In this document: one piece after another, positions 1 through 39,577 of the stretch
Layout: each line of letters opens with the position of its first letter
Position numbering within the stretch: position 1 is the first letter of the stretch
NCBI GenBank assembly: GCA_029261895.1
Contig: JAJDAK010000064.1
Location: 18,582-82,581, forward strand
DNA from: Deltaproteobacteria bacterium
GTDB taxonomy: Bacteria > Myxococcota_A > UBA9160 > SZUA-336
Length of the DNA: 64,000 bases
Direction of reading: 5' to 3'
The notes under the pieces: model-generated
The model's input: the letters and a program-made list of their open reading frames with translations, nothing else
Database searches by the model: none
What the model was told of the DNA's origin: nothing
Translations under genes and position numbers: made by a program

Positions 1-3000
1 CGACCTTCCTATTGGGCGTGAGTGGGAGCGCTTCGAGAGAGATGAACTGCGACGGAATCATGTATGCGGGCAGGGCCTCTGCCAGATATCCACGCAACTC
101 GTCGGGTGCATCCAGTGTACCCACTACGTAGGCGACGAGCGCATCGGTCCCGGTCGAATCCTTTCTGCCGACAACAACAGCGTCGCGGATCTGATCGTGA
201 CGAAGCAGAAGCGATTCAATTTCCCCTAGCTCGATACGGTGACCTCTAATTTTTACCTGATGGTCGGTACGTCCCAGAAACTCGACTCCGCCGTCGTTCC
301 GAAGTCGGGCAAGGTCGCCGGTTCGGTAGAGGCGCTCCTTGCTATTCGGCTTAAACGGATGGGGAACGAACCGCTGTTGTGTAAGCTCGGGTTGTCCGCG
401 ATAGCCTCGCGCAAGCCCGGCACCGCCAATGTAGATTTCGCCGGTCGCGCCAACAGGTACCGGCTGTTGTTTGGGGCTCAAAATCAGAAGCTGCGTCTCC
501 GCGATGGGAGCGCCTAGCGAGATGTATGTGGATCCGGTTTCAACTCGTTTGACGGTAGACCAAATGGTCGTTTCAGTCGGGCCGTAGAGGTTCCAAACCT
601 CCCCGCAGTTCTGTGTCAACCACTCCGCGAGGTCCAGCGGGAGTGCTTCACCTCCACAGAGGACCCGCAGGCTCGGATGACCCGTCCAGCCAGAATCGAC
701 CAGCATTCGCCAAACGGAAGGGGTGGCTTGCATCACACTCACTCCGTGCTGGAGTAGCGCGCGTGCGAGTAGCTGCGGATCGCGAACGGTTTCGGAGTCA
801 GCGATCACCACCCGCGCTCCAGTGATCAACGGAAGGAATAGTTCCAAGCCCGATATATCAAACGAGAGCGAGGTAATGGCGAGTAGCGCGTCGTTATCTC
901 GAAGCCCGGGTTCTGCTTGCATGGAACGGAGAAAATTCAGTAGGGCGCGATGTTCTATTTCGACACCTTTCGGACGACCCGTAGAACCAGAGGTATAGAG
1001 CACGTAGGCTAGATTCTCTCCGCCAATCGATCGATGCGGGGCGGTGGTGGGAAAGTCCGCGGCGGCGAGCATGATGGCGTCAAGATCTAGGACTTCGCCA
1101 GCGGAACTCGAGGCGAATACTGCGCGGTTCTGTTTCTGAGTGATCAGAATCTCGGCGCCACAGTCTTTGACCATGAATGCGAGCCGATCGCTGGGGAAAC
1201 TCGGATCCAACGGCACATAGGCGCCGCCTGACTTAAGCACCGCAAGCAAAGCGACGAGCATGTCGACGGAGCGCTCTACACCGATTCCTACGGTTGTCTC
1301 CGTATCGATGCCCAACCGATCTAGATAATGTGCGACCGCGTTCGCGCGTCCGTCCAGCTCAGCGTAGGTTAAGCTCTGCGTCGCGTCCTCTACGGCGATC
1401 GCATCCGGGGCGGTTATGACCTGTTTTTCGAACGCATCGATCCATGTGGGTTCAGCGAGCGGCAGAGGGCGACCGTAAAGACTGGCAACGTGGCTGTTAC
1501 GTTCTGCTGACGTGAAGAGTTCGAGATCACTGAGCGCGCAGTCTGGCGCCGCGACGATGCTCTCAAGGAGCGTTTGGAAGTGCCGTGCCATGCGTTCAGC
1601 AGTCGCGTCCTCAAAGAGGTCTGTGCTGTACTCGAGCTTCCCCTGTAGCTCCCCGTTGTTTTCAAAGAATAGAAGGTTGAGATCGAAGATACAGCCACCT
1701 CCATCAACGAGGAGGCGGTCTGCAGCCAGTCCAAACCGATCGAAGTCCTGGCTGTCAAATGCGCGATTCATACCAACACCGACTCGGACTACGGGATCGC
1801 GCCCACCGTCATGGGCGCGCTGCAAATCCGCAACCAGGCGATCGATGGGTACGTCCTGATGCGCGTAGGCGTCGAGACAAGTTTCACGCACGCGCTCAAG
1901 CAAATCTCGGAAGCTCGGGTCGTTTGCAAGGTCTGTGCGAAGCACCAACGTATTAACAAAGAAGCCGACTGATTCACGAACCTCGGAATTCCGGCGCGTG
2001 GAAACAGGCGCGCCGATCGTGATATCGCACTGTCCCGAATATCGGTGCAGTAGGGTCTTGAGTGCAGCAACAACGCTCATGAATAGCGATACGCCTTGCT
2101 GCTTAGCAATCTCAGCTAAGCCCTCGCGTACATGGTTTGGAACTTCGAAGAAGACGGCTGCTCCGCCCAAGCTTTCGCCGGAAGCAGAAGGATAATCTGA
2201 AGGAAGCTCCAATGTTTCCATGCCGCTGAGCTTTTCTAGCCAGTACTCGCGCTGTGGCGCGATTAGATTATCCAGTCGCCCTTCATGCCAGCGGGCGAAG
2301 TCGGCATACTGGATTGGAAGAGCCTCGAGGTCATCCCCCGCATAGAGCTGGAAGAGCTCTCGAACGAGGACGTGCATCGATTCAGCATCGGAGACGATAT
2401 GGTGCATGGTCAATAGAAGCAGGTGATCGTCTTCGGCGAAACGCACGGCACGTACGCGTAACAACGGGGCTTGCCCGAGATCAAAGGGCGTACTGGATTC
2501 CTGTGCTGCGATGACGCGAGCGGTTTCATCTCGCTGATCGATATTTAGATTTTGAAGATCTTGGAAACCCAGTTCAAGTGTTGAAACCGATTCCACGATT
2601 TGCGCGTGCGTCGTGAGCTCCGATGCGAAACGCGTACGTGTCGTTTCGTGTCGCGAACCCAATTCGCGGACGGCAGCTTTGAGTTTGTCGAGATCGAGAG
2701 CGCCGTGCAGGCGAAATGCAATGGGTACGTTGTACGCGGCGGTATTGGAATGTAGCTGATCCAAGAACCAGAGACCCGCTTGTGCCGGAGCCAGCGGGAA
2801 CCGATGTACTTCTTCCGCGTCTCTCTGTAGGGGTGGGATCGGATCTGGCTCGATCATCCGGAATTCGTGTGATGAAACTTGAGCGCTGAGTGCGAGCGCG
2901 AGCGAACGCGGTGTGGGATGCTCCCAGGTGAGCCGGTTGCTTATACGTCGATTGAGCCAGTCACCCAGTTCGACCGCGAGACCGATTGCTCGCGCGGAAT

Positions 3001-4916
3001 CGAGTCCATAGGAATCGAATTGCTCGTCGGGATCGATTTCGTCAACGTCAAGACCACAGATACCCGCGAGTCGCTCGACCAGTAATGACTCAATGGCTGA
3101 GGTGTCCAGACCGCTGCTGTCTTGTTCAGTCGTTTGGTCGGCTGTGCTTGGTTCAGACCATTCAGCAACAATTGCCAGTTCGCTGCTGAGAAACTGGTTC
3201 CGACACAAGCGCCGTTGAATCTTGCCACTCGATGTCTTGGGAATACTGCGTGCTTTGACCAGGACGACGGCGTGGGGTGCAACGTCGTGCTCAGCGATAA
3301 TCTGCCGACGGATGAGTTGTAAAACCTCTTTGGGTTCTAATCCCTCAACGACGTTAACTTCCTGGACTACAACGAGCTTCTCTTCGTTATCGTGCTCGAT
3401 CGAAAATGTGGCACTGCAGCCTGGCCGAACTGCAGCGTGGACTGAGTCACAGCTGAATTCGATGTCTTGTGGATAGTGATTGCGCCCTCGGATGATGATT
3501 AGATCCTTGAGGCGACCTGTGATGTAGAGTTCGTCGTCGTGGAAGAATCCAAGATCGCCAGTGCGTAAAAACGTTTGGTGATTATCGGACGAAAGTCGGG
3601 CACCAAAAGTCTCTTGGCTCTCCTCGGGTCGATGCCAGTAGCCGGAAGAGACACTCGGTCCAGAAAGCCAAATCTCACCAATTCGGTCCGGCGCTACGGG
3701 TTCGTGAGATTCAGGGTCTACGACCTCCGCCCGCAGGTCGTCCCGCGGCTGACCTTGCCCAACAAGTACGCGAGCTACCGCATTCGCATCGGCGATCTTG
3801 ATCTCATTGTTCTCAAGCGCATCTGCGTCCAAGCGAGCAACACCGAGCGGGGCATCTAACTCGCCACCGGTCACCATGAGCGTCGCTTCGGCGAGTCCGT
3901 AGGCCGGTCGAAAGGCGTTTTGCCGAAAGCCACAATCTGCAAAGACGGAGGCAAAACGTTCAAGTGTTTGATGACGAACAGGCTCTGAACCCACCATCGC
4001 GACCTGCCAACTGCTCAAGTCCAATTTAGCGCGATCGTCCGCTCCAATTCGTCGTACGCAATAGTCGAACGCGAAGTTGGGGCCGCCGCTAAGGGTTCCA
4101 CGATAGTGTGAAATAGCGCGCAGCCAGCGTAGAGGTTCCTGTATGAAAGCCTCGGGTGGCATAAAGACCGAATGCCCGCCGCAATAGACCGTCTGAATCA
4201 CATTCCAGATCAAACCCAGATCATGAAAGAGGGGGACCCAGCTAACCATGACGGATCCCGGTATGCGTCCCCATGCATTTCGAAGCATCTCGGAGTTTGC
4301 AGTTAAATTGCCGTGGCTCACCACAACGCCCTTGGGTTCGCCCGTTGAGCCTGACGTGTACTGCAGGTAGGCAGGCGAGTCAGGCCGCGCTACGAAATCA
4401 AACGCATCAGCAAAGCCTTCGAGGAGGCTATCAGTGGGTAACCAAGTACAGCCTTTGAACTTAGGTGCGTTTGCTTCGATCTCATGGCTGCGAGCTGCAA
4501 GCTCCGCGTTCGTCAGGACTAGCCGTGCACCTGAGTCAACCAAGATGCTCTGCAACCGCGGCAAAGTACGCGCCGCTCGGGCCAGATTGGGAGCGGGCGT
4601 GGGTACCGCAATGGCACCGGCATAGAGACAGCCGTAGAGCGCCACGATGAACTCGATCCCCGACGGAAGGATTACTAAAACGGGTTTGCCCTGTGCCTCA
4701 TGCTTGCGCAGCTCAGCCGCAACCTGCCTGGCACGACGGTCAAGTTCCGAGTAGGAGAGATTTATTTCGCCAGTGTTGTTTTCACCGTTAGGTAGAAACG
4801 TAAACGCGATCTTATCTGCGTTCAACCGAGAGAACCTACGGAGCCTATCTACGATAGGTTCAGGATTCAGCTCTTGACCTTCCTGCTGGGGCAATTCAAA
4901 AACCTCGTCAGGCATG
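1..4916 (-). CDS. Non-ribosomal peptide synthetase, partial (C-terminal part runs off the window start). Domain order from the N-terminus is fatty acyl-AMP ligase (FAAL), carrier (T), condensation (C), adenylation (A).
   Basis: A continuous minus-strand frame with no stop between 4916 and 1 (absent from the ORF track because it is open at the window edge). The start is ATG at 4916-4914 (MPDEVFELPQQ). FAAL/AMP-binding motifs are YLQYTSGSTGEPKGVVVSHGNL and a later YTSGSTGRPKGV with GELYIGGAGLARGY and a TGDLARL-type core. The carrier motif is FDSYGLDSARAIGL. The condensation region has MHHIVSDAES (HHxxxDG-like). Confidence 0.85.
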
Positions 4917-4980
4917 TACCGTGGCAGTCAATGCGATGCGCAACATCACGTTAACTGAGTTGTTGCAACCTGATTCACCA

Positions 4981-4990
4981 CTATTATAAG
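4981..4990 (-). promoter_or_regulatory. Candidate -10 box (TATAAT on the minus strand) about 65 nt upstream of the NRPS start codon, in the AT-richer 4920-5120 intergenic region
   Basis: The minus strand reads ...cggaatctcttataatagtgg... The -35 is weak (atccac). Confidence 0.2.
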
Positions 4991-5304
4991 AGATTCCGCT
5001 ACGAGGTGGATTCCGATCGCAACCACGAACTATCATTTGAAATCATCCGCGCGTATTCCCCGATTATTGTGTCAATATTTGAGTAGGTTCGATCCCAAGC
5101 GCAATTTTACACCGACTCATTTAGCACTAGATACACGGGCAATATGAGGAGAGTGGTAAACCCAGCATATAGGTGTCGAGCGCGGATGCACGATGCGCAA
5201 CTGTCGCGCAGCGTCGTTGGGGGTTGCGCGTGTGGTGTGCAAAGTATCCGCGCTAAACACGCAGCTATGCAGCATGCTGCGTGCTTCTACGGCTGTTTGA
5301 TTTT

Positions 5305-6765
5305 CTAGATCAGCGTGAAGCTGTTCAGGTGAAGTTGAATACTGTGTCCGCAGGATTCTTTCGTTACAGCGTGTTGGGCGAGTTGCGGGTCGTTGGACGT
5401 GGCGATGGTTCGGCGGCCATCGGGAAGATCGCAGAGTGCGATCGTTGTTGCCGGTGCGTTGTTCATATACAACACGGTGTAGGTCGCGATCGTGGCCGGC
5501 CCCCTTGCTTCGTCTGCGAGTTCCAAGCGTGGAGTGTCGGCACAGGTGGCTTCCGTCACGTCGTCGAAATGGAATTTGCTGGTTCGCGGTTCGGTGGACC
5601 ATAGGCTTACGCCCTGTTTGGTCAGAATGCCGCTCACCGCGGTCGCCATACCCAAGCTTCCCGGATCCGCGCGTAGGACTTCGACCATTCGCGGGAGGGC
5701 TTGAAGTACGTAGTGGTTGAACGGTCCGCCTGCGAACGTCATTCCACCCGTTAGTGTCAGTGCGCGTGCCGCGGTCAGGCCGAGCTCCTGGAGTTGGACG
5801 CGAACGGCTGCAGGAAAGCAGCTATAGAGTTCGAGATGCTGGACCTCAGAGATTTCAGCAGAGATACGTCCTAACGCGGTCGTGGCCGCGTGTGCGAAAC
5901 CCGGGCATCGCTCGATTTGACGCCGGCGTGAAAGCGCACATACATCGTTGGAGTCTGCGATCGCCAGTGGAATGACCCAACGCTCGCGAGGAATACCAAA
6001 ACGCTGGGCTGTTGCGACCGAACACAGAATTAGTGCGGCGGCTTGGTTTACGTTCCATTGCGAAGCGAGCATTTTTGTATAGGGAAATGCAAGTTCGCCG
6101 CTACGCAGAATCATTTCCGCATCGACAGGTTCTTGGGTCCACGCCTGAGGGTTTGTTTGTGCGACGCGGCTATAGGCAGCCCATAGTCCGGCGAGTTCTT
6201 CCCGGTGGCGCCTTACGTCTTGGCCGGAGTTCGCACGGAGTGAGTTTTCGATCATTGCGTATTGCGTAACCGGTCCCGCCAAGCCCCTTTGAATCTCGAG
6301 CAGGTCGATCACCAGCGCGTCTGGTTTAATGAGCGAATCAGGTTTGCACGGAGCTTGCTCCGTGTTTTTCACGTTAATACCGAGACGTTTCGCTTGTTGC
6401 TCGCGATATTTCGCCTCTGCGCCAACGACGAGTGCAATCTCCGACTTACCGTTCGCAATGTCTCGAGCCGCGCGTCCGAGCAGCGTGGTCTGCAGAACGC
6501 CAACGTCTGCGATTTCTGTGCGCGCGCGAGTCGCGCCGAGTTGATCTGCGAGCAACCGACCCGGATCGGAATACGACCAGAGCCCACGTGGGATCCGGAT
6601 CGAATCCGCGTTCGTGATCAGTTCGTGAGACCCCGCATCTTTCGCGGCGGCGTCCAACGCGCTGAGCATTAACGCCAACGCTTCCCTGGCACGCGCCGGA
6701 TCGGCTTCGTACTCTTGAACGGCTGCGGCGCCCACCAGAACGGGCGTACTTGGGTCGATCGTCAT
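5305..6765 (-). CDS. Thiolase-fold (SCP-x / lipid-transfer-protein type) protein. The catalytic N-terminal Cys is not obvious.
   Basis: ORF 5305..6855 trimmed to ATG 6765 (MTIDPSTPVLVGAAAVQEY) with a GAGGGGG RBS. The N-terminus is thiolase-like, an IALVVGAEAK segment resembles the VGxEKM region, and the C-terminus has a GGMTFAGGPFNHY glycine-rich loop. No NxxCxSG motif was seen. Confidence 0.55.
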   Translation of the reverse strand: MTIDPSTPVLVGAAAVQEYEADPARAREALALMLSALDAAAKDAGSHELITNADSIRIPRGLWSYSDPGRLLADQLGATRARTEIADVGVLQTTLLGRAARDIANGKSEIALVVGAEAKYREQQAKRLGINVKNTEQAPCKPDSLIKPDALVIDLLEIQRGLAGPVTQYAMIENSLRANSGQDVRRHREELAGLWAAYSRVAQTNPQAWTQEPVDAEMILRSGELAFPYTKMLASQWNVNQAAALILCSVATAQRFGIPRERWVIPLAIADSNDVCALSRRRQIERCPGFAHAATTALGRISAEISEVQHLELYSCFPAAVRVQLQELGLTAARALTLTGGMTFAGGPFNHYVLQALPRMVEVLRADPGSLGMATAVSGILTKQGVSLWSTEPRTSKFHFDDVTEATCADTPRLELADEARGPATIATYTVLYMNNAPATTIALCDLPDGRRTIATSNDPQLAQHAVTKESCGHSIQLHLNSFTLI

Positions 6766-6888: not shown

Positions 6889-6965
6889 GGCCCAGTAGCT
6901 CAGCTGGATAGAGTACTAGCCTCCGGAGCTAGGAGTCGCAGGTTCGAACCCTGCCTGGGTCACCA
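6889..6965 (+). tRNA. tRNA-Arg (anticodon CCG) with encoded CCA
   Basis: Cloverleaf: acceptor GGCCCAG/CTGGGTC, D-arm GCTCAGCTGGATAGAG, anticodon stem CTAGC / loop CTCCGGA / GCTAG, T-arm GCAGGTTCGAACCCTGC, discriminator A, CCA. Confidence 0.9.
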
Positions 6966-7014: not shown

Positions 7015-10000
7015 TTAGGGAGTCTCGTCGAGCCGATCGATCAAATAGGCTCGGAGATTTTCGGGCGAAACAATCGCTTCCAATGAACCGACTTTGAGCG
7101 CGCGCTCTACTGTGTGTACGCGGTCAAATTCCGTCGCGACTTCGGCCTGCTTTTCTAGTCGTACGGCATGCTCGATAGAATCGAGTTCCTCACGCGAACT
7201 GAAAGCGCCATTAATCTTGGCCGTGCGCAGGTTTCGAATCCTCTGATCCGCGGCCATGCGTGCACGGACTTCGCGGTGAAAAACAACCGCCGCCGCAGGC
7301 CCGCCTCCGATCACCGATGCAAACGAGCCGGTGAGTGCGGTTGCACGAAGCTCGGAGTTGAGCTCGCGCGAAAACACGACGTAAGCGCCGCCGTGATAGC
7401 GGGACACTACAGTGAAGAGTAGGGGACCCTTGAAATTGACCACCGCGCGCGCGATTTCGGCACCGTACTCGAGCTGCAGCGCTCGCATGGATTCGGGCGA
7501 CCCGTCAAAGCCCGAGAGATTCGCAAGAATCACGGCAGGTCGATTACCGCTCGCAGCGTTGATCGCGCGTGCCAGTTTTTTGGAAGACAATGGGAACAGA
7601 GTGCCGCCTGACCAGGTCGACGGTCCGTCAGTGGATGCATAGCCCTCGCGTGGTAGAGGTTGACTCTCAATACCGATCAGTGAGATCGCATGTCCGCCGA
7701 GCCGTGTGTCCCAGACGATGGTGGTACCTGCGTCCTGCCAGCGGAGCCAACGTTCCAGGTAGCCTGCGTCTTGGTCCACAGTTGCGCGCATCACATCGCG
7801 CATCGCGAATGCGCATTTACGTTCCGGGTTTTTAGATGCACTGAATATATCGCCGACACGTTCAAAGCCATGGTCTGCATTAGGTTCGCACGCATACTCG
7901 GTGATGTTGCGGTCTCGAGGGTCGGCTGTTGCAGTCCGTGATGGTCGAGAGGTACCAGAAGCGACGTAGGTGAAGCGATAGTGTTCATAGAGCGTCTGAT
8001 ACGCATCGAATAAACTCCGCGCGTAGTACTGGGCTTCGCCGTTGGGGCCCATGACTCGCTCAAAACCGCCGATCGCAACCTCGTCCTCCGCCGAGACCGA
8101 TCCGGAAGCTTCCAGCGCCGCGCGTCCAGTGAGAACCATCGCACCCGCCGGCGTCATGATCAATGCGCCACGGGACCGAGAGTGCATGGTTGCGAGTGCA
8201 TTAAAGTAGCTTTGCGCGCCGACGTTCACTCCTGAAACCAAGATATGAATTGTTCCGCCAGCCTCTGTAAATTCGATGATTCGACGGACTACGCGTGCCG
8301 TCGCGTCTAAGTTTTCTGTGCCGCTATCCATAGCGATCCGAGCACCGCTGGAAATGGGCACCCATTCAACCGGCACCTCATTGCGCTCCGCCAGATCGAT
8401 TGCAGCCTGTATGCGATCGCATTCTCTTGCACTGAGCGCGCCCATGCCTTGGGTCGGATCGGAAAGGATCAGCATGCGACGAATTCCGCTGGGGAACTCC
8501 GGTGTTGGCGTGTTGATTAGTCCGACCACAACGCCTGCCGTGTTTTGCCCGTAGTTTCGATCCGCGACACTCATTAGCCGTGGCTCGGTGCTTTCAGGGT
8601 CCAGATCGTATTCCTGAAACTGGCCTGTAGGGAGGCGTACCGCGTCGGAATCCGAGCTCAACCCGTTGGCTCGTGCACCGCCCGTGAGCATACGAATGAT
8701 CTCGTAGGGATAGATGAGTCCGTGACGCCGCGCCCGAACCAATTTGCGTTCGTAATCTTGCGCAGGTTCCAAAGGCGCATGATGGACGGAGCGCGCGTAG
8801 ACCTCGGAGTGTGCGCCCGTAGGATCTGCAATGACCAATTCGATGGGACCGTCGGCCCCGTCTTGAATCGGTTGCTCGACCCGAACTACAACTTTTTCCA
8901 GCCCCAAATGACGAACCGCCGGTGCCAATCGATGGATCACCGGCTTGGTTGTTTCCGCGTCCACAGAAACCGGGGATGCAACCGCAAGAAAGATTCGGTT
9001 CCACTGCAATTGGCGACGGGGGTCTCGCTCGCCGATGACGTGGCGTAGGGTACGCGCAGCTTCAAAGAACGCGTGCTCGAACTCGGGAATCAGTAAGGTG
9101 TCGGGATCTGTCCCGCCGACGATATCCGCCAGAACAAAAATTCTTTCATCACTCGGTACCTCTTTGCTGCGTAGGTGGAAGCAGAAAAGGTCTTCGGGGG
9201 CGTCCAATCTTTCGAGGTCAAAGGCCTGTAACCGCTCGAGTCCTACGCGTGCTGCGGTTTCGGGATGTATTCCATGCAACTCCTTCTGGAGTACGACTTG
9301 TCCGTCACAGCACAAGAAGCTGAGATGTTGCGGCGCCAACTGCGCGCGCTGAAGCGTGATGCAAAGGCGTTTAAACGGGAATTCGCTATGAAGCTGATGT
9401 AGTACAGCGCTGGCGAGTTCGTCTTCTTTGATATCATGCTCGCAGTCAACGAAGAGTTCCAATGCGGTCGGTTGGATGGATTGGGCCAAGCGTCCGATCT
9501 GATTCAAGCAAGAGCTTAGTTCATCGAGTCTGGTTCGGGTCGCCCAGACCGTGCGACCATCGTCGAACTCAAAGCATTCGATGGTGGGATGAGTGTTTGC
9601 TAACAGGCTGGGACCATTGGATACGTGCGGTACATAGAGTCGGGCAACGATAGCTTCGATGGAATCCGGTCGATCGGCTCTACCCATGGCATTCTTCTCT
9701 AGCACGGGTCGATTGAAAATCGTGTATGCGGTCTCGATCGCGAGATCTGCAACAGAATCGGACACGAGGCCTCGGAGTCCAGCGATCGCGATCAACGACG
9801 CGTGGAAAGCCTGGTCGGCTTCAAGGTTGAGCCCGCTCGCCGCAAGCGCACCGAGAAGCTTGGTGATTCCTAGCACCAGACGCAGCCGCCGGTCACGGGA
9901 TTGCTGTGACGCGAGCAGGCGCAACAAACCGCGCTCTAGGCCGGCACTGGGTTCTAGTCGGGTGACGCCGTAGTGCGCAAGCGCGTGTTCAAGGAGAATC

Positions 10001-12444
10001 CGAAAGTTTGGTGAAACTCCTTCGCCAGCCGCACCGATCCGCCGCATGTACTTACGTAGATGCGCGTGGTTGGAGAAGCCCAATTCACCCTCGATCGAGG
10101 CTTGTGGGCGTTTGACGAAAAGGCGTTCGATATCGACGAATGTTTGGAGTTCATGTCGGAGTTCAGAAAGTTCCAAGCGAAATGTTTCAGGCAAGTCGTC
10201 TGGAACCTCTGCGTTCAGGATCGCGAGCAGCAGGTCGCACCGTTGGGGATTAAGATCGTATCCCATCAACACACGACGAATTTCATTTCGTGCACCATCG
10301 ATTGCGTTTAATCGATGTTCCCTTGTGTCTCCCGCCGCAGAACTGAGGTCGGGGACCAGGTCTGCGGCTTCGTCAGTGGAGCGAAAAAAAGTCTCCAGTG
10401 GATCAGGCTCCGCCGGAAATTCGATGCGTAGTTTTGAAGCTGGTTCACTGACCTCGAGAGAGTCGGTAGCATCTGGTTCGATGATTACGAGGAGATCAGT
10501 ATCGCTCACCTGTTGACCCATCTGCACGCGAACTTCTTTGACTTGACCGGCTATGGGTGACTGAACCGCAATTTCCATCTTCATGGCTTCCAAAAGACCC
10601 AATGATTGGCCAGGGACTACGTGGTCGCCCTTAGCGATATGTATTGCGGTCACGCGTGCAGGTGCTTGCGCACGGACGTAGCCCGCAAGGTCACTACCAA
10701 AACGATAGGGATGGCTTTCGACTTCTATGCGAATGCCTTGTTCAGATACGTCGTGAAGCACTCGCAGTGCACGCCCTTCACGTTCCAGTGATGCGACATT
10801 CAAATCCCGTGCAAGGAGGGTCGCGTGTACGACTTTTCCATCGAGGTATACACGGTATTTCCAGGCGCCAACTGCGAATACATCAAGCCGATATTCCTCA
10901 AGACTGTGCGTGAGCTGAATCTGTTGTCCTGTTGACGCAGGGATCCAGTTCGGGGAGAGATTGCCTGGGTCGGTAAGAAACTTTCGGCGTGCCGCGTCTC
11001 GATTTCGCTGATACGAGAGAATCGCCGCCGCGATCAGGGCATCGCTAAGGTAGCGATCGGACCCGTCTCGAAGCGCGGGATTCTGGTCCAGCCACTCCGT
11101 GTCAAACCGACCTGCACGAAAGGTCGGATGATCAAGTAAATGGATCAAAAACCCCTTGTTACTTGTGCCGCCCTGAACCACGAGTTCGAAGTCTTTCAGT
11201 CCAGCGAGCAAGCGTGCGTGCGCTTCCTCGCGTGTTTGTCCGCTGGCAATGACTTTGGCGATCAGCGAATCGAATGCTGCGGGTATCTCGGCACCACCGA
11301 CGATGTCGGTGTCAATGCGTATCCCGGGACCGTGGCACGGTGCGAAGTGAACGATCCGGCCGGGTGAAGGTTGAAATCCCGTGGCCGGGTCCTCTGCGCA
11401 GACTCGAGCTTCCAGCGCGAATTTTCCAGGCGCGTTAGGTTGAATCGAAAGCACTTCGCCTTGTGCAATACGAATCTGTTGATGGATCAGGTCGATGCCC
11501 GTAACGGCTTCGGTGATTCCGTGTTCAACTTGGAGTCGTGGATTGACTTCGAGGAAGTAGATGTGGTTTTCAGAGACCAGGAATTCAACGGTTCCAACGC
11601 CGCGGTACTCTGCCTGGGTTGCGAGTCGAACAGCGAGATCTTCGATCTCCTGTAGCAGTTCAGTGGGTAGATTAGGAGGCGGAGTTTCTTCCAATACCTT
11701 CTGATGTCGTCGTTGAACCGAGCAGTCCCGGCAACCGAGTGCGATCACGTGGCCATACATATCCGCCACGATTTGCACTTCGATATGTCGACCGTGTGGA
11801 AGTTTCTTCTCGATAAAGAGCGTATCGTCGCCGAACGCTGACTTGGCTTCAGCGGCGGCGGAGCGAAACGCATCGGGGAGTTCTGCGGGCGTCTCCACAA
11901 TGCGGATGCCGCGACCGCCACCGCCCGCGCTTGCTTTGACGACCAACGGAAAGCCCACGCGTTTTGCGCAATCTCGAGCCGCATCCAGGGTATCAACGCG
12001 ACTACCGCTCCAGGGAATGACTGGAACGCCAGCGGCTACAGCGAGTTGCTTCGCACAGATTTTGTCACCGAGGCTGCGCATTACATCAGCGGGAGGCCCT
12101 AAAAAACAAATGCCAGTCTGGTCCAGGCGGGAGACAAACTCTGGATCTTCGGATAGAAATCCCCAACCAGGCCATACGGAATCTGCACCGACGTCTTGGA
12201 TGGCGCGAATCAAACCGTCGTAGTCGAGGTAGGCTTGAACGGGTCCGTCTGGGGAGGGGAGTCGTACGGCCCGATCCGCATGACGCACAAAGCTCGCGTC
12301 GCGGTCGACGTCGGTATAGAACGCAACGCACTCGAGCTCCACGTTTTCCAGTTCGCGAAACGTTTTGACCGCACGGATACAGCGCATCGCGGGCTCGCTA
12401 CGATTGACAATCGCCAGACGTCTTAAGTTACGACGATGTGTCAT
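7015..12444 (-). CDS. Single-polypeptide multidomain acyl-CoA carboxylase (biotin carboxylase, biotin carboxyl carrier and carboxyltransferase domains), about 1809 aa
   Basis: ORF 7015..12525 trimmed to ATG 12444 (MTHRRNLRRLAIVNRSEPAMRCIRA). BC domain: ATP-grasp with EVNPRLQVEH. Biotinyl-lysine motif: EAMKMEI. C-terminal half: carboxyltransferase N and C subdomains (SGGARI, LIMTPAGAMVLTG). Confidence 0.85.
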   Translation of the reverse strand: MTHRRNLRRLAIVNRSEPAMRCIRAVKTFRELENVELECVAFYTDVDRDASFVRHADRAVRLPSPDGPVQAYLDYDGLIRAIQDVGADSVWPGWGFLSEDPEFVSRLDQTGICFLGPPADVMRSLGDKICAKQLAVAAGVPVIPWSGSRVDTLDAARDCAKRVGFPLVVKASAGGGGRGIRIVETPAELPDAFRSAAAEAKSAFGDDTLFIEKKLPHGRHIEVQIVADMYGHVIALGCRDCSVQRRHQKVLEETPPPNLPTELLQEIEDLAVRLATQAEYRGVGTVEFLVSENHIYFLEVNPRLQVEHGITEAVTGIDLIHQQIRIAQGEVLSIQPNAPGKFALEARVCAEDPATGFQPSPGRIVHFAPCHGPGIRIDTDIVGGAEIPAAFDSLIAKVIASGQTREEAHARLLAGLKDFELVVQGGTSNKGFLIHLLDHPTFRAGRFDTEWLDQNPALRDGSDRYLSDALIAAAILSYQRNRDAARRKFLTDPGNLSPNWIPASTGQQIQLTHSLEEYRLDVFAVGAWKYRVYLDGKVVHATLLARDLNVASLEREGRALRVLHDVSEQGIRIEVESHPYRFGSDLAGYVRAQAPARVTAIHIAKGDHVVPGQSLGLLEAMKMEIAVQSPIAGQVKEVRVQMGQQVSDTDLLVIIEPDATDSLEVSEPASKLRIEFPAEPDPLETFFRSTDEAADLVPDLSSAAGDTREHRLNAIDGARNEIRRVLMGYDLNPQRCDLLLAILNAEVPDDLPETFRLELSELRHELQTFVDIERLFVKRPQASIEGELGFSNHAHLRKYMRRIGAAGEGVSPNFRILLEHALAHYGVTRLEPSAGLERGLLRLLASQQSRDRRLRLVLGITKLLGALAASGLNLEADQAFHASLIAIAGLRGLVSDSVADLAIETAYTIFNRPVLEKNAMGRADRPDSIEAIVARLYVPHVSNGPSLLANTHPTIECFEFDDGRTVWATRTRLDELSSCLNQIGRLAQSIQPTALELFVDCEHDIKEDELASAVLHQLHSEFPFKRLCITLQRAQLAPQHLSFLCCDGQVVLQKELHGIHPETAARVGLERLQAFDLERLDAPEDLFCFHLRSKEVPSDERIFVLADIVGGTDPDTLLIPEFEHAFFEAARTLRHVIGERDPRRQLQWNRIFLAVASPVSVDAETTKPVIHRLAPAVRHLGLEKVVVRVEQPIQDGADGPIELVIADPTGAHSEVYARSVHHAPLEPAQDYERKLVRARRHGLIYPYEIIRMLTGGARANGLSSDSDAVRLPTGQFQEYDLDPESTEPRLMSVADRNYGQNTAGVVVGLINTPTPEFPSGIRRMLILSDPTQGMGALSARECDRIQAAIDLAERNEVPVEWVPISSGARIAMDSGTENLDATARVVRRIIEFTEAGGTIHILVSGVNVGAQSYFNALATMHSRSRGALIMTPAGAMVLTGRAALEASGSVSAEDEVAIGGFERVMGPNGEAQYYARSLFDAYQTLYEHYRFTYVASGTSRPSRTATADPRDRNITEYACEPNADHGFERVGDIFSASKNPERKCAFAMRDVMRATVDQDAGYLERWLRWQDAGTTIVWDTRLGGHAISLIGIESQPLPREGYASTDGPSTWSGGTLFPLSSKKLARAINAASGNRPAVILANLSGFDGSPESMRALQLEYGAEIARAVVNFKGPLLFTVVSRYHGGAYVVFSRELNSELRATALTGSFASVIGGGPAAAVVFHREVRARMAADQRIRNLRTAKINGAFSSREELDSIEHAVRLEKQAEVATEFDRVHTVERALKVGSLEAIVSPENLRAYLIDRLDETP

Positions 12445-13004
12445 GCACAGGCAAAAGCCACGAAGCGGCCGTGATGGGAAAGAGAAACGGGAAGACCGCG
12501 CTGTAGATCGCCAATGTGTAGCCACGGCATCCGGCGCTTTCGCTCGATCGTGATATTCGAAGCAGCGATGCCCCAGCGCTTGGCCAGCTGTTCGCGGACG
12601 AGACGGCGTACCTCGATACTCTGGGCATCGCTGTCGAGTGCGAAGTCAAAACAACGCAGAGCATGGAAGGGTTCGGTTTCAGACCGCGTCTGGGCAATCG
12701 CGTGAACGTAGTCCGGTCCGTTAAAAAAATGGACGGTGAGGTCGTGTTGCTGATGGATTAGGTTTGCCTTATGGCCGCGGATGGGTCCGCAGACGAAACA
12801 GCGCGGAGAAAATGGCAGTCGTGAGTCCATACGGCGTAATGCTTTGAATGCGGCTTCCTTGGCTGCCCAAAACATCCACCGGGCACGCATGGGGTCGGTC
12901 GACTGTTCAATCATGTCCCGCTCCGAATCTGCGAATACCCGCGAGTCGAATCTCGGATGCGTCTGTTTCGCGCTGGATAGGTCGACCAGGTCATTACCGA
13001 TCAT
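12441..13004 (-). CDS. 4-prime-phosphopantetheinyl transferase, Sfp/EntD type
   Basis: Motifs GNDLVDL and WAAKEAAFKA (PPTase motifs 2 and 3). Start chosen at MIGNDLVDL. Overlaps the carboxylase start by 4 nt and the upstream acyltransferase stop. Confidence 0.75.
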   Translation of the reverse strand: MIGNDLVDLSSAKQTHPRFDSRVFADSERDMIEQSTDPMRARWMFWAAKEAAFKALRRMDSRLPFSPRCFVCGPIRGHKANLIHQQHDLTVHFFNGPDYVHAIAQTRSETEPFHALRCFDFALDSDAQSIEVRRLVREQLAKRWGIAASNITIERKRRMPWLHIGDLQRGLPVSLSHHGRFVAFACA

Positions 13005-13737
13005 CGAAGTATTCTCGCTCCATGTGTGCAAGCCGCCCCACGATTTGCTGGGAGATATCCCGTGCCGCGCGCAGGCCACTACTTTCTGTTTTAGGGTCGA
13101 AGAGTTCTATTATGACTGAGAAGCGTTCATTTCGGTGCGGCAGGTTGGAATAGGTTCCCTGTCCATCGCCGCGTAAATAGACACAAAGCACGCGACAGCG
13201 GGGAATTGAATCGATCAAGCCGCCGACGCCGTAGGCAGCGTTCGTTACGTCTATGCGACCGCTGCGGCTGCGTCCCCCTTCGGGGAATACCATGCCGACC
13301 TCACCGTTTTCGACGCAGAAACCAAATCGACTCATCGTGGCCTGAACTTCCTTTCGAGGCCCGCCACGTTGAATGGGTATGCACTTGAATAGGTAGGATA
13401 GGACGCGAAGCGCGATGCCGTGAGAGAAGTTTGTGCGCTCTGGAACGTTCCATGGCAACGCATGGAAGTTCCTGAGGTACCATCCCGGAGACCCTAGAGC
13501 CCAAGCGATGATGGCGGAATCCACCATCGTCAAATGATTCGGGCAGATCATCAACGGAGCGTCATTGGAGTCGAGGATCCGCCGATATTCGCGTCGCAGG
13601 TGGACTTGATCCCGAATCTGATATCCGAAGCCAAAACGCATGAGCATGATTACCGAAGGAACCGTCAGCGGTGCGAATATTAGGCTGATCCAACGCTGGA
13701 GTTGTATGCGTAGATATGTGCCTGCAGAAACGTTCAC
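12994..13737 (-). CDS. PlsC-family (lysophospholipid/glycerol-3-phosphate-type) acyltransferase
   Basis: HxxxxD motif NHLTMVD and acceptor-binding motif VFPEGGRS. GTG start forms a GTGA overlap with the ACP stop. Confidence 0.8.
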   Translation of the reverse strand: MNVSAGTYLRIQLQRWISLIFAPLTVPSVIMLMRFGFGYQIRDQVHLRREYRRILDSNDAPLMICPNHLTMVDSAIIAWALGSPGWYLRNFHALPWNVPERTNFSHGIALRVLSYLFKCIPIQRGGPRKEVQATMSRFGFCVENGEVGMVFPEGGRSRSGRIDVTNAAYGVGGLIDSIPRCRVLCVYLRGDGQGTYSNLPHRNERFSVIIELFDPKTESSGLRAARDISQQIVGRLAHMEREYFDDR

Positions 13738-13985
13738 GCGCCGAGCTTCGACTCGATCAGTTGTACCGCATTCTCGACGGTTTCCACGAGATCGATGTCT
13801 TCATCCTCGATCTGGATGTCGAACACATCTTCAAACTCGAGGATGATGTCTACGAGTCGTGCGGAGTTTATTTTTAGGTCATCGAGCAAGTGCGTCTTGA
13901 GGGAAATCTTATCGCGCGCGTCTTCGTTTCGAATAAACGGCGCAAGGATGGAAATGATTTTGTCAAAGATATCTTGTCGATTCAT
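13734..13985 (-). CDS. Acyl carrier protein
   Basis: 83 aa, acidic, with DDLKINSARLVDII (DSL-type phosphopantetheine attachment Ser). RBS AAGGAGG lies 7 nt upstream. Confidence 0.85.
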   Translation of the reverse strand: MNRQDIFDKIISILAPFIRNEDARDKISLKTHLLDDLKINSARLVDIILEFEDVFDIQIEDEDIDLVETVENAVQLIESKLGA

Positions 13986-14012
13986 GAATGGCCTCCTTAG
14001 GGTGAAGTGAAT

Positions 14013-15293
14013 CTAGGCGTTCTGCCAATTACCGATCATCAAACACGCATTCACATCGCCGAATCCGAACCCAGCTTTCGCTGCGATCCGTAGTTCGGGT
14101 GCGTCGCGCGTCGTACGGGGTATTGAATGCGAATACCTTTCGATCTCAGGATGAACATCCTCGCAGTTGATCGAAGGATGAATGAAACCTTCGTAGAGCA
14201 TTTGGACGGTAGCAATCGATTCAATCGCACCCGCCGCCCCGAGACTGTGACCGATCATCGATTTGGTGGAGGTGATCGGAGGCAGGTGATCGGGCGTCTG
14301 CTCCAACGCTGTCGCCCAAGCCGCGACTTCCTTTGGATCTGCTCCCGTGGCGGTGAGGTGACCGTTGATGAGACCTACTTCCGATCCGCTGATTCCCGCA
14401 TCTTGCAATGCTGCACGGATACAACGCACAACACCGTTGGGATTAGGTGCGCTCATACTGCCGCCACCACGGTGTCCACCACAGTTGAGCGCGGTTCCTA
14501 GGATCTCCGCGTAGATTCGTGCACCGCGTTGAACCGCGCTCTCGTAGGACTCGAGCAAGAGTACTCCGGCGCCCGCGCTGGGGACGAATCCACCCGCGGA
14601 AGCACTCATGGGTCGGGAAGCTTCTTCTGGGCGATCGTTGAATCCTCGACAGAGCACACGCATGGAATCAAAACCAGCATAGATGTAATGGCTTGCAGCT
14701 TCGGCGCCGCCGCAGAGCATGCGTTCCGCGAGTCCCTGGCGAATTCGATTCGTGCCTTCGGCGATAGCTTCGGTACCTGTGCTACACGCGCTCGAATTGG
14801 TGGTGACTTGGTTCCCGAGTGCAAGCAACCCGGAGATCCGTGCGGAGATACCACTTGCCATGACCTGTTCGACGACGGTACTTCCGAGACGACGAATCTT
14901 GCCCGCATTCGTGAGGGGTACGATGCGTTCGGCGATCGTGTCCATGCCACCAATGCCTGTTCCCAAAATGGCACCTGTATCCCAGTCGACGCGGTCGCTT
15001 TCGGCCTCAGGTCGTTTGAATCCCGCATCTTCCCAGGCATCCACCGCTGCGATACTTGCCAGACGATGACTTGAATTCATGGCGAGCAACTGCTCGCGAC
15101 TGAAATAACGTGATGCGATCTCATCGACACCTTGAGGAATGCCTGCGACCTGGCAACCGAAGCCGAGTTCAGCCATGATAGGATTGAGTCGAATTCCTGA
15201 CTTGCCTTCGCGGAGTGACTGCGTAAACGCGTGTAGATCGGATCCGTTGGCCGCGACGACGCCCATACCCGTGATGACGACCCGCCGTCTCAT
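14013..15293 (-). CDS. Beta-ketoacyl-ACP synthase I/II (FabB/FabF family)
   Basis: N-terminal VVITGMGVV. An internal segment reads TNSSACSTGTEAIAEG in the supplied translation, and the text Cys-His-His triad is HLTATGADPKE ... IGHSLGAAG. 426 aa. Confidence 0.85.
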   Translation of the reverse strand: MRRRVVITGMGVVAANGSDLHAFTQSLREGKSGIRLNPIMAELGFGCQVAGIPQGVDEIASRYFSREQLLAMNSSHRLASIAAVDAWEDAGFKRPEAESDRVDWDTGAILGTGIGGMDTIAERIVPLTNAGKIRRLGSTVVEQVMASGISARISGLLALGNQVTTNSSACSTGTEAIAEGTNRIRQGLAERMLCGGAEAASHYIYAGFDSMRVLCRGFNDRPEEASRPMSASAGGFVPSAGAGVLLLESYESAVQRGARIYAEILGTALNCGGHRGGGSMSAPNPNGVVRCIRAALQDAGISGSEVGLINGHLTATGADPKEVAAWATALEQTPDHLPPITSTKSMIGHSLGAAGAIESIATVQMLYEGFIHPSINCEDVHPEIERYSHSIPRTTRDAPELRIAAKAGFGFGDVNACLMIGNWQNA

Positions 15294-15727
15294 AGGGGAA
15301 CTCCGGTTCCAGAAAGCGTACCTGCACAGACCAGCGAACCACCGGGGAGGCGCATTTCGGCTGAGACGCGGAGCGTCCGCCGTCGATAAAAGACCTTCTT
15401 CGCCGAGGTCGTGACCTCAGTGCCGGGTAGCACGATTCCTGCGAACTCTACGTCCGCATGGGAGAAGAGGGTTGTAATCTTGGCGTCGGGATCCTCACGG
15501 TGCAATAGATAGAGTCCGAGCGCGACCACTGCCGCTTGCGCCATGGTTTCAATGAGAATGACGCCGGGTGTAATCGGCCGACTTGGGAAATGTCCGCGAT
15601 AGAAATCGGCATCTTCACGATAGCGATAAGTAGCGACGACATGATCTTCGTCGAGTTCTAGGATGCGATCGATAAAGCGAAACGGTTCTTGCTGTGGGAT
15701 CGCGGCCAGTATTTCTTCTTTTGTCAT
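15290..15727 (-). CDS. fabZ: 3-hydroxyacyl-ACP dehydratase, FabZ-like hotdog
   Basis: GHFPSRPITPGVILIETMAQ motif. ATGA overlaps on both flanks. Confidence 0.8.
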   Translation of the reverse strand: MTKEEILAAIPQQEPFRFIDRILELDEDHVVATYRYREDADFYRGHFPSRPITPGVILIETMAQAAVVALGLYLLHREDPDAKITTLFSHADVEFAGIVLPGTEVTTSAKKVFYRRRTLRVSAEMRLPGGSLVCAGTLSGTGVPL

Positions 15728-39503: not shown

Positions 39504-39577
39504 CCCGAGACCCCATAAATTCTTGATTCCTCAATAAACTTGCGGCTTTAGCAGCTGGAACGGTATGTTTCTTGCTA

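What the first reader, a model, noticed from the sequence alone, without database searches (positions are those of the whole stretch)
1..4916. NRPS initiates with a fatty acyl-AMP ligase domain (lipoinitiation) and continues beyond the window
The first adenylating domain ends in ...SSGKIQRR without the CoA-binding features of acyl-CoA synthetases, and it is followed directly by a carrier domain and a C domain. This FAAL-T-C arrangement is typical of lipopeptide starter modules. The window captures only module 1 (FAAL-T-C-A), so the peptide length and any terminal TE/R domain are unknown. All plus-strand ORFs in the track across this region are antisense artefacts.
Basis: partly seen in the sequence, partly recalled or inferred. 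Interest (0 to 1): 0.5.

Follow-up and report, generated by a model that had tools for sequence, protein, structure and literature searches.

The report
Lipopeptide synthetase start: fatty-acid loader plus glycine module
The first 4.9 kb of the window encode the intact start of a non-ribosomal peptide synthetase that most likely loads a fatty acid and joins it to glycine; this is a well-known way to begin a lipopeptide, so it is a new member of a known kind.

Summary
A minus-strand frame is open from ATG 4915 to base 2 (1638 codons) and runs off the window.

Domains are FAAL (residues ~18-586), carrier (611-674, Ser in GLDS 637-640), condensation (706-1139, HHIVSD 838-843) and adenylation (1162-1638, cut at motif A10).

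The first domain is a fatty acyl-AMP ligase, not a CoA ligase:
- Its 15 best solved relatives are all FAALs.
- It carries the ~26-residue FAAL-specific insertion.
- A carrier domain follows it directly.

New here:
- The A domain reads as glycine-specific. Its code DILQLGLIWK matches DhbF-Gly.
- The C domain resembles ordinary LCL elongation domains, not starter-C domains.
- An identical SRA-derived contig shows the gene continues at least 348 residues further.

The upstream fatty-acid-synthesis-like cassette with a single-chain carboxylase is conserved in two relatives that have no NRPS next to it. In the window an opposite-strand tRNA-Arg gene separates it from the NRPS, so it is probably not a dedicated tail factory.

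The closest NRPS homologue is 43% identical.

The parts
2..4915 (-). 5' part of an NRPS gene: 1638 codons, start ATG at 4915, 3' end outside the window
   Evidence: The frame is open throughout. Pfam domain order is FAAL-T-C-A. The same gene start is called on the identical Logan contig, where the product is 1986 aa and is cut by the contig end.
3158..4864 (-). Fatty acyl-AMP ligase (FAAL) loading domain, residues ~18-586. Motifs: A3 TSGSTGEPKG (187-196), A5 YGLAE, A7 RTGDLG, A8 GRLKDLIIIRGRNHYPQDIE, A10 PKTSSGKIQRR (SGKIQRR = 563-569).
   Evidence: Best PDB matches are FAALs: 7r7e 8.7e-147, 3kxw 2.2e-123, FadD32/FadD23/FadD28 and EcFAAL 1e-96 to 1e-70. FadD13 (a CoA ligase) scores 2e-25. NCBIfam FAAL models score 450-500 bits. 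Pfam finds the PF23024 DIP2-like C-terminal subdomain.
3773..3859 (-). FAAL-specific insertion, approximately residues 353-381: ...LDAPLGVARLDADALENNEIKIADANAVA...
   Evidence: The A5-to-A6 distance is 74 aa here, against 48 aa in this protein's own A domain and a median of 49.5 in 172 homologue A domains. A MAFFT alignment shows the extra block only in FAAL domains. The block aligns with only 1-3 short gaps to 3kxw, 5hm3 and 7r7e, whereas the best CoA-ligase alignment (3g7s) stops just after A5, before the insertion.
2894..3085 (-). Carrier (T/ACP) domain 1, residues 611-674. The phosphopantetheine-attachment Ser is in GLDS (637-640, window 2996-3007).
   Evidence: Pfam PP-binding 2.5e-12; motif located.
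1499..2800 (-). Condensation domain, residues 706-1139. Active-site motif HHIVSD (838-843, window 2387-2404). LCL-like.
   Evidence: Pfam Condensation 4.6e-97. PDB scores: TycC6 PCP-C 2jgp 240 bits, Txo2 233, fuscachelin PCP-C 218; PvdL C1 147; surfactin starter C 98; CDA C1 47.
2..1432 (-). Adenylation domain of module 1, residues 1162-1638, predicted Gly. It is cut by the window edge at the A10 motif (…PLTPNRKV).
   Evidence: Pfam AMP-binding plus AMP-binding_C. The specificity segment is closest to the Gly-activating A domains AB3403 (4zxh, 3.1e-33) and DhbF (5u89, 1.7e-32), with the next match at 4.9e-24 and then 1e-15. The code residues read DILQLGLIWK, as in DhbF.
4916..5304 (.). 389-bp intergenic region upstream of the NRPS start
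   Evidence: Sequence read. The consensus scan found no sigma-70-like promoter and no intrinsic terminator. Rfam found nothing here.
5305..6765 (-). Thiolase-like protein type 1 (TLP1-like, 486 aa), immediately upstream on the same strand. A possible but unproven member of the cluster.
   Evidence: Pfam TLP1_add_C 3.4e-07. NCBIfam PRK08257-type 'acetyl-CoA acetyltransferase' 339 bits, below its cut-off. It is absent downstream of the conserved cassette in L004 and L005.
6889..6965 (+). tRNA-Arg(CCG) gene on the opposite strand. It separates the TLP1-NRPS unit from the upstream fatty-acid-synthesis cassette.
   Evidence: Rfam tRNA 62.9 bits; ARAGORN.

Best explanation
This is the N-terminal part of a lipopeptide NRPS that starts by FAAL-mediated lipoinitiation.

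Proposed mechanism:
1. The FAAL domain adenylates a free carboxylic acid, most likely a medium- or long-chain fatty acid, with ATP.
2. The FAAL-specific insertion and the obstructed canonical pocket prevent use of CoA. The acyl group therefore goes to the phosphopantetheine arm on Ser-640 of the fused carrier domain.
3. The A domain activates glycine and loads it on the next carrier domain, which lies just beyond the window.
4. The LCL-like C domain (HHIVSD) joins acyl-S-T1 to Gly-S-T2, giving N-acyl-Gly-S-T2.
5. Further modules outside the window extend this intermediate.

Shown here: an intact ORF, the domain order, the FAAL-type sequence features, catalytic motifs present in the FAAL, T and C domains, in the A domain's A3-A5 and the Lys of its truncated A10, the glycine-type specificity code, and continuation of the gene.

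Inferred: the identity and chain length of the acid, actual rejection of CoA, peptide length, and the release mechanism.
For: ORF and domains:
- The frame is open over 1638 codons and the domain order is FAAL-T-C-A.

FAAL identity:
- PDB matches: 7r7e 8.7e-147, 3kxw 2.2e-123, FadD32, FadD23, FadD28 and EcFAAL. CoA ligases score no better than 1e-29.
- In the A3-A6 segment, all 15 hits with E<=6e-38 are FAALs.
- The ~26-aa insertion is supported.
- SWVPLFHDLGL and PNFAF correspond by register to EcFAAL W224, M231 (Leu here) and F279. The segment PPEAFIQEPLRWL corresponds to the FAAL-specific helix region described in PMC8460268.
- The C-terminal subdomain hits PF23024 (DIP2/FAAL-like). The true A domain instead hits PF13193.

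Glycine assignment:
- The specificity segment matches AB3403 (4zxh) and DhbF (5u89), with code residues identical to DhbF.

C domain:
- The catalytic motif is intact and the best matches are LCL-type.

Continuation:
- The Logan contig carries the same gene with a 1986-aa product.

Precedents:
- Homologues at up to 43% identity are FAAL-T-C-A-T-C-A-T proteins sitting in NRPS/PKS clusters.
- PvdL module 1 loads myristate ahead of its first amino acid (PMC6206403).
- FAALs fused to NRPS or PKS are reviewed in PMC11837247.
Against: - There is no biochemical evidence. FAAL-like domains can accept non-fatty carboxylic acids; AmbG is an example (PMC11837247).
- EcFAAL M231 is Leu here. The pocket mapping rests on motif register, not on a structure.
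- The A10 motif of the A domain reads NRK, whereas the matched A10 motif reads GK in all 111 homologues where it was found. The effect on activity is unknown, and this base is not covered by the second contig.
- No Shine-Dalgarno-like sequence or consensus promoter was seen upstream of ATG 4915.
- The carrier domain that should receive glycine, and everything after it, was not seen.
Confidence: 0.85

Rival explanations
1. The adjacent upstream genes are a dedicated tail factory. A type II FAS/PKS-like set (SDR, KASIII, two FabA-like dehydratases, KS, ACP, PlsC-like acyltransferase, PPTase), the 1809-aa single-chain carboxylase and the TLP1-like protein would make a special, perhaps unsaturated, acyl chain. 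The FAAL would then load that chain, and the whole 18-kb minus-strand block would be one biosynthetic cluster.
For: All of these genes are on the same strand and contiguous with the NRPS, spanning window 18256 down to 2. One dehydratase hits the ApeP/ApeI-like families associated with polyene lipids.
Against: - The nine-gene cassette occurs in the same order in two relatives, L004 (JGI 3300022562) and L005 (GCA_964494795.1). There it is followed by a TetR gene, with no TLP1 or NRPS within the 10 kb fetched on either side.
- In the window, an opposite-strand tRNA-Arg gene (6889-6965) lies between the carboxylase and TLP1, so they are not one operon.
- The cassette contains AcpS-type PPTase and PlsC-like genes. 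That fits a conserved lipid-synthesis operon of the lineage.
- The closest-homologue NRPS locus examined (P0002, L003) has no such cassette.
- A FAAL needs a free acid, and no thioesterase is present in the cassette.
Confidence: 0.12
2. The first domain is an acyl-CoA synthetase-type (FACL) or generic acyl ligase. It would make an acyl-CoA that is used in trans, rather than loading the fused carrier.
For: Some NCBIfam models named 'long-chain-fatty-acid--CoA ligase' also score well, for example PRK07768 at 406 bits. The Met of the pocket-blocking triad is Leu here.
Against: - FAAL models and FAAL structures score higher.
- The FAAL-specific insertion is present and aligns with only 1-3 short gaps to three FAAL structures, while the best CoA-ligase alignment (3g7s) stops just after A5, before the insertion.
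- A carrier domain is fused directly downstream.
Confidence: 0.03
3. It is a PvdL-type siderophore-chromophore synthetase, that is, an acylated ferribactin starter.
For: The best NCBIfam model is PRK05691. Its 4334-position length suggested the Pseudomonas PvdL-type NRPS, although the model's own description is only 'non-ribosomal peptide synthase/polyketide synthase'. It aligns over residues 18-1638 to profile positions 8-1617 at 1332 bits. PvdL has the same acyl-ligase-T-C-A start (PMC6206403).
Against: - The first amino acid of PvdL is L-Glu (PMC6206403). Here the code is the glycine code.
- PvdL's C1 and A1 are only distant matches, at 147 and 266 bits, well behind other NRPS structures.
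- No pvd-type neighbours are present.
- The score is below the model's cut-off of 4090, although only 38% of the profile could be tested.
Confidence: 0.02
4. The FAAL-like domain loads a short or functionalised non-fatty carboxylic acid, such as a hydroxy, branched, aromatic or polyketide-derived acid. The product would then be an N-capped peptide rather than a true lipopeptide.
For: FAAL domains show broad and sometimes non-fatty substrate ranges. Table 2 of PMC11837247 lists C4-C6 starters, and AmbG is another example. No specificity prediction could be run here.
Against: The closest characterised relatives act on C12-C18 fatty acids: LpFAAL, EcFAAL and FadD32 (Table 1 of PMC11837247). The Ols FAAL is in that table with substrate unknown; that it acts on long chains is my own knowledge.
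Confidence: 0.2

Closest known systems
PvdL of Pseudomonas: acyl-ligase-T-C-A(Glu)-T... start of pyoverdine/ferribactin synthesis (PDB 9lco and 9up2; NCBIfam PRK05691)
   Same: Same N-terminal architecture and logic. An adenylating acyl ligase is fused to a carrier, followed by C and A domains, so that the first amino acid is N-acylated (PMC6206403).
   Different: The first amino acid here is predicted to be Gly, not Glu. Sequence similarity is only moderate: C1 147 bits, A1 266 bits. There are no pvd neighbours, and the model score is below its cut-off.
FAAL domain of the Picosynechococcus sp. PCC 7002 olefin-synthase PKS (PDB 7r7e); Legionella FAAL (3kxw); Mtb FadD32/FadD28/FadD23; EcFAAL (3pbk)
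   Same: These are the closest solved relatives of the first domain, at E 1e-147 to 1e-70. They share the core motifs, the FAAL-specific insertion, and the SWxPxxHDxGL and PNFA(F/Y) motifs.
   Different: Those FAALs hand the acyl chain to PKS modules or to stand-alone ACPs. Here the carrier feeds an NRPS condensation domain. EcFAAL Met231 is Leu here.
Uncharacterised FAAL-T-C-A-T-C-A-T proteins of about 2850 aa from Acidobacteriota (Pyrinomonadaceae, Blastocatellia), Nostoc/Anabaena, myxobacteria and Tumebacillus
   Same: These are the best full-length homologues, at 37-43% identity over 98-100% of the fragment. In the three scanned (P0001, P0083, P0096) the domain counts and positions fit the same FAAL-T-C-A start; the rest have the same length and Pfam sets. 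One of them sits in an NRPS/PKS cluster.
   Different: Identity is only 43% at best. Their first A domains mostly carry other specificity codes (DAW.., DVW.., DLF..), so they are not orthologous pathways.
Gly-activating A domains: DhbF module 1 (PDB 5u89) and AB3403 (PDB 4zxh)
   Same: The specificity-conferring segment is closest to these two (1.7e-32 and 3.1e-33). The code DILQLGLIWK is the same as in DhbF.
   Different: Their module context differs: a siderophore synthetase and a stand-alone four-domain NRPS. The A10 motif here is NRK rather than NGK.
Starter-C-domain lipoinitiation (surfactin SrfAA, CDA, daptomycin type)
   Same: Same outcome: N-acylation of the first amino acid (PMC8949500, PMC7804268).
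   Different: In those systems the C domain is the first domain and takes acyl-CoA or acyl-ACP in trans. Here the C domain is internal, follows a cis FAAL-T pair, and is LCL-like by similarity.

Membership tests
Fatty acyl-AMP ligase (FAAL) | ANL adenylation core motifs, including the A10 catalytic Lys | tested here: met
   A3 TSGSTGEPKG, A5 YGLAE, A7 RTGDLG, A8 GRLKDLIIIRGRNHYPQDIE and A10 PKTSSGKIQRR are all present.
Fatty acyl-AMP ligase (FAAL) | FAAL-specific insertion of about 20 residues between A5 and A6, absent from CoA ligases and from amino-acid A domains | tested here: met
   The spacing is 74 aa against 48 aa. The segment aligns with only 1-3 short gaps to 3kxw, 5hm3 and 7r7e. The best CoA-ligase alignment (3g7s) ends just after A5, before the insertion.
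Fatty acyl-AMP ligase (FAAL) | Closest characterised relatives are FAALs rather than FACLs | tested here: met
   The top 15 PDB sequences are all FAALs, with E from 1e-147 to 1e-70. FACLs score no better than 1e-29. NCBIfam FAAL models score 450-500 bits but lie below their equivalog cut-offs.
Fatty acyl-AMP ligase (FAAL) | Obstructed canonical CoA pocket: EcFAAL W224, M231, F279 and the FAAL-specific helix (PMC8460268) | tested here: inconclusive
   By motif register, Trp (SWVP) and Phe (PNFAF) are present, Met is replaced by Leu (HDLGL), and the helix-region motif PPEAFIQEPLRWL is conserved with 7r7e and 3kxw. No structure or direct alignment to EcFAAL was made.
Fatty acyl-AMP ligase (FAAL) | Cognate carrier protein or domain as the acyl acceptor | tested here: met
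   A PP-binding domain begins 25 residues after the FAAL and has the GLDS serine.
Fatty acyl-AMP ligase (FAAL) | Forms acyl-AMP and acyl-S-carrier but not acyl-CoA | not testable with these tools
   Requires a radio-TLC or mass-spectrometry assay of the purified FAAL-T didomain.
NRPS elongation module (C-A-T) | Condensation domain with an HHxxxD active site | tested here: met
   Pfam Condensation 4.6e-97 and HHIVSD at residues 838-843.
NRPS elongation module (C-A-T) | Amino-acid adenylation domain with Asp235 and Lys517 | tested here: met
   TIGR01733 at 626 bits, above its cut-off of 317. FDIS carries the Asp and A10 carries the Lys (NRK).
NRPS elongation module (C-A-T) | Carrier domain after the A domain | not testable with these tools
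   It lies beyond window base 1. The Logan contig shows at least 348 further residues in frame, but their sequence could not be fetched.
Glycine-activating A domain | Specificity code DILQLGLIWK, or closest similarity to proven Gly A domains | tested here: met
   The code read by motif anchors equals that of DhbF-Gly in the printed alignment. AB3403 and DhbF are the top two matches, with the third at 4.9e-24 and the rest at 1e-15 or weaker.
Starter condensation (Cs) domain | First domain of the synthetase; clusters by sequence with Cs domains | tested here: not met
   The C domain is internal, following FAAL-T. Scores are 240 bits to LCL TycC6, 98 bits to surfactin Cs and 47 bits to CDA C1.
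PvdL (pyoverdine chromophore NRPS) | First amino acid L-Glu; pvd gene context; score above the PRK05691 cut-off | tested here: not met
   The code is the Gly code. No pvd genes are present in the window. The score is 1332 bits against a cut-off of 4090, with only 38% of the profile available.

The most novel reading that the evidence does not exclude
The NRPS, from an uncultivated Gram-negative lineage, has no relative above 43% identity among 5.8 billion proteins. It might draw its acyl starter from the neighbouring conserved FAS-II-like cassette with its single-chain 1809-aa carboxylase, with the TLP1-like protein acting as the link. One possibility is that TLP1 releases or remodels an ACP- or CoA-bound chain to give the free acid that the FAAL needs. 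That would be a previously undescribed coupling between a lineage-conserved lipid operon and a lipopeptide assembly line, yielding an unusual N-acyl-Gly lipopeptide.
Probability: 0.08. Interest if true: 0.55.

Novelty: new member of a known kind. Interest (0 to 1): 0.25.

Why it matters
It marks one end of a lipopeptide biosynthetic gene cluster in a poorly sampled bacterial lineage, and it already fixes the first two building blocks: an acyl chain and glycine. That is useful for genome mining and for matching the cluster to a product. It does not change how lipoinitiation is understood, because FAAL-fused NRPS and PKS lines are already catalogued in the thousands (PMC12820801, PMC11837247). 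The practical value depends on recovering the rest of the gene cluster.

Tried and rejected
Attempts to extend the gene beyond window base 1 all failed:
- The search for related loci in genome contigs returned only a 33%-identical Kordia locus.
- An exact 50-mer from the window start had no hit in JGI metagenome contigs.
- Look-ups of the two genes close enough to the window edge, TLP1 and the carboxylase, were 'not on record', although both sequences are in the protein collection.
- The KS gene look-up did find an identical Logan contig. The locus fetched stops at window 4013, and only the gene table shows the 1986-aa product.

Taxonomy remains unresolved:
- The best AhcY hits apart from the window's own protein are 75-81% identical. 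The named ones come from several phyla, so they are uninformative.
- The carboxylase's nearest named relatives are Myxococcota, 'Deltaproteobacteria' and Binatia MAGs at 52-57% identity. That is only a weak hint.

Other checks that led nowhere:
- A literature search for the string DILQLGLIWK found nothing.
- No consensus promoter, terminator or Rfam element lies in the 389-bp upstream spacer.

Readings considered and rejected:
- PvdL orthologue: the code is Gly and there is no pvd context.
- CoA-ligase reading: rejected on the FAAL evidence.
- Starter-C domain: rejected on position and similarity.
- Single operon with the upstream FAS-like cassette: rejected because of the intervening tRNA gene and the non-conserved adjacency.

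I did not run a structure prediction, because the sequence evidence for FAAL identity was already decisive.

Full report
**Observation**

Translating the minus strand of window 1-5200 gives one frame that is open from 4927 to base 2. The first ATG is at 4915, which gives 1638 codons. The other two frames are full of stops. The frame runs off the window, so the ORF listing does not report it.

Pfam places these domains in order:
- AMP-binding with a DIP2-like C-terminal subdomain (PF23024), residues ~18-586
- PP-binding, 611-674
- Condensation, 706-1139
- AMP-binding, 1162-1505, plus AMP-binding_C, 1565-1637

Position-specific GC content (0.67/0.44/0.58) matches that of neighbouring genes.

Seven plus-strand ORFs and three off-frame minus-strand ORFs inside the region have no Pfam match. 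The one exception is a sub-threshold chance hit. The observation and its coordinates are therefore confirmed.

**Is the first domain a FAAL?**

Against all PDB sequences, the 15 best matches are fatty acyl-AMP ligases:
- the FAAL domain of the Picosynechococcus PCC 7002 PKS, 7r7e (8.7e-147)
- the Legionella FAAL, 3kxw (2.2e-123)
- FadD32, FadD23, FadD28 and E. coli FAAL

Acyl-CoA ligases are far weaker, for example FadD13 at 2e-25. NCBIfam FAAL models (PRK05850, PRK12476, FadD32) give 450-500 bits, although these are below their narrow equivalog cut-offs.

The defining FAAL-specific insertion (PMC11837247, PMC8460268) was tested in three ways.
- Spacing: the distance from motif A5 to A6 is 74 residues in this domain. 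It is 48 in the same protein's amino-acid A domain, and the median is 49.5 in 172 A domains of homologues.
- Alignment: a MAFFT alignment shows a block of about 26 residues (…LDAPLGVARLDADALENNEIKIADANAVA…) only in FAAL domains.
- Structures: the A3-A6 segment aligns with only 1-3 short gaps, through the insertion, to 7r7e, 3kxw and Mtb FadD32. The best CoA-ligase alignment (3g7s) stops just after A5, before the insertion.

By motif register, the residues reported to obstruct the canonical CoA pocket of EcFAAL are W224, M231 and F279 (PMC8460268). Here they correspond to Trp in SWVP, Leu in HDLGL and Phe in PNFAF. The helix-region motif PPEAFIQEPLRWL is also conserved with the solved FAALs. 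This mapping is an inference, because no structure was built.

A carrier domain with the GLDS serine follows 25 residues later.

**The rest of the fragment**

The C domain has an intact HHIVSD motif. It is most similar to ordinary LCL elongation C domains: TycC6 PCP-C at 240 bits, Txo2 at 233 and fuscachelin PCP-C at 218. It is much less similar to PvdL C1 (147), the surfactin starter C (98) or CDA C1 (47). It therefore works like a normal elongation C domain whose donor is the cis acyl-S-T1. It is not a member of the starter-C subtype.

The A domain matches the general NRPS adenylation model TIGR01733 above its cut-off. Its specificity-conferring segment is closest to two glycine-activating domains, AB3403 (4zxh, 3.1e-33) and DhbF (5u89, 1.7e-32). 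The third match is at 4.9e-24 and the rest are at 1e-15 or weaker. That these two domains activate glycine is from my own knowledge of those structures.

Reading the code by the standard motif anchors gives DILQLGLIWK, the same residues as DhbF in the printed alignment. The anchors are FDxS for positions 235/236/239, QATP for 278, LxGGE for 299/301, and NxYGPTETTxx for 322/330/331.

The window cuts the domain at its A10 motif, which reads NRK. The matched A10 motif reads GK in all 111 homologues where it was found. The meaning of this single-base difference (AGG against GGN) is unknown.

**Continuation**

A Logan assembly contig, SRR15505518_49948 (26,877 bp), is 100% identical to window 4013-25293. 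It carries the same gene start, and the product is 1986 residues long, cut only by the contig end. The synthetase therefore continues for at least 348 residues beyond the window. I could not fetch that sequence.

**Surroundings**

The following genes lie upstream on the same strand:
- a TLP1-like thiolase-fold protein, 5305-6765
- an 1809-aa single-chain biotin carboxylase-BCCP-carboxyltransferase, 7015-12444
- an AcpS-family PPTase
- a PlsC-like acyltransferase
- an ACP
- a FabF-like KS
- two FabA-like dehydratases
- a KASIII
- an SDR, the block ending at 18256

This looks at first like a dedicated lipid-tail factory. Two results argue against that.

First, the nine-gene cassette from SDR to carboxylase is conserved in the same order in two relatives. 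Their carboxylases are 56% identical to the window's. In both, the cassette is followed by a TetR gene, and no TLP1 or NRPS lies within the 10 kb fetched on either side (L004 and L005).

Second, a tRNA-Arg(CCG) gene on the opposite strand (6889-6965) lies between the carboxylase and TLP1 in the window. No tRNA gene lies within the flanks fetched from the two relatives.

The cassette is therefore best read as a lineage-conserved lipid-synthesis operon. The NRPS, perhaps together with TLP1, is a separate unit whose cluster extends out of the window.

The rest of the window holds housekeeping genes: lptC/lptA-like genes with an ABC ATPase in the lptB position, then rpoN, a PTS EIIA (ptsN-like) gene and hprK, and also ptsI, metK, ahcY, secDF, ispD and uvrBC.

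**Relatives and novelty**

The best homologues among 5.8 billion proteins are only 37-43% identical. They are proteins of about 2850 aa from Acidobacteriota, Nostocales, myxobacteria and Tumebacillus. The three scanned with Pfam (P0001, P0083, P0096) have domain counts and positions that fit FAAL-T-C-A-T-C-A-T. One of them sits in an NRPS/PKS hybrid cluster without the FAS cassette. Their first A domains mostly carry other codes, so they are not orthologous pathways.

The best NCBIfam model is PRK05691, which by its length I take to be the PvdL-type model. It aligns across the whole fragment, and PvdL uses the same acyl-ligase-T-C-A start to make a myristoylated precursor (PMC6206403). However, PvdL's first residue is Glu, and no pvd genes are present in the window.

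FAALs embedded in NRPS or PKS megaenzymes are well documented and numerous (PMC11837247, PMC12820801).

**Verdict**

- The A domain is glycine-specific.
- The C domain is LCL-like.
- The neighbouring FAS-like cassette is probably not dedicated to the NRPS.
- Continuation of the gene is proven.

It is a new, divergent member of a known kind. Interest is modest (0.25). The remaining value lies in recovering the rest of the cluster and its product.

Noticed in passing
window 7015-18256 (minus strand): Nine-gene cassette: SDR (FabL/FabI-like), KASIII, a FabA-like dehydratase, an ApeP/ApeI-like dehydratase, a FabF-like KS, ACP, a PlsC-like acyltransferase, an AcpS-family PPTase, and an 1809-aa single-chain BC-BCCP-CT carboxylase. 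The same order is conserved in two relatives (L004, L005). The carboxylase family of about 1860 aa is widespread in Myxococcota, 'Deltaproteobacteria' and Binatia MAGs at 52-57% identity. No source names a function beyond a generic annotation.
   Followed up: partly
window 6889-6965 (+): tRNA-Arg(CCG) gene lies between the carboxylase stop (7015) and the TLP1-like gene, on the opposite strand. No tRNA gene lies within the 10-kb flanks fetched from relatives L004 and L005, which marks a break in synteny where TLP1 and the NRPS begin.
   Followed up: partly
window 5305-6765 (minus strand): Thiolase-like protein type 1 (TLP1_add_C domain; PRK08257-type, 339 bits, below its cut-off) sits directly upstream of the NRPS. 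Its role is unknown. It is a singleton cluster in the protein collection.
   Followed up: partly
window 5-13 (minus strand; residues 1635-1637): The A10 motif of the glycine A domain reads N-R-K (codon AGG) instead of the near-universal N-G-K. The matched A10 motif reads GK in all 111 homologues where it was found. It could be a real variant or an assembly or sequencing error at the contig or window edge.
   Followed up: partly
window 27535-31332 (minus strand): Two adjacent large ORFs of 629 and 635 aa have no or only faint Pfam matches (TSP_3/dockerin-like calcium-binding repeats). Nearby are PEP-CTERM and CBM96 proteins at 20116-22145. Relatives L004 and L005 also carry PEP-CTERM/TSP_3 small proteins and an exosortase near the cassette.
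   Followed up: no
window 24673-27474 (minus strand): Hybrid CHASE2-GAF-histidine kinase-receiver protein of 933 aa.
   Followed up: no
window 33365-35254 (+) and 35327-37108 (minus strand): A 629-aa ORF and a 173-aa ORF without Pfam matches lie next to a cytochrome P450 (35921-37108) and an SDR (37224-37925).
   Followed up: no
window 39572-46338 (+): An lptC-like gene, an lptA-like gene, an ABC ATPase in the lptB position, rpoN, a PTS EIIA (ptsN-like) gene, a short C-terminal-only HPr kinase, and ptsI. This is a Gram-negative-type regulatory PTS cluster and gives a hint about the lineage.
   Followed up: no
window 1414-1758 (minus strand, off-frame inside the NRPS gene): A 114-aa embedded ORF gives a weak HTH_63 hit (E 8e-4, 19.5 bits, below the cut-off of 23.9). 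I judge it a chance match.
   Followed up: yes
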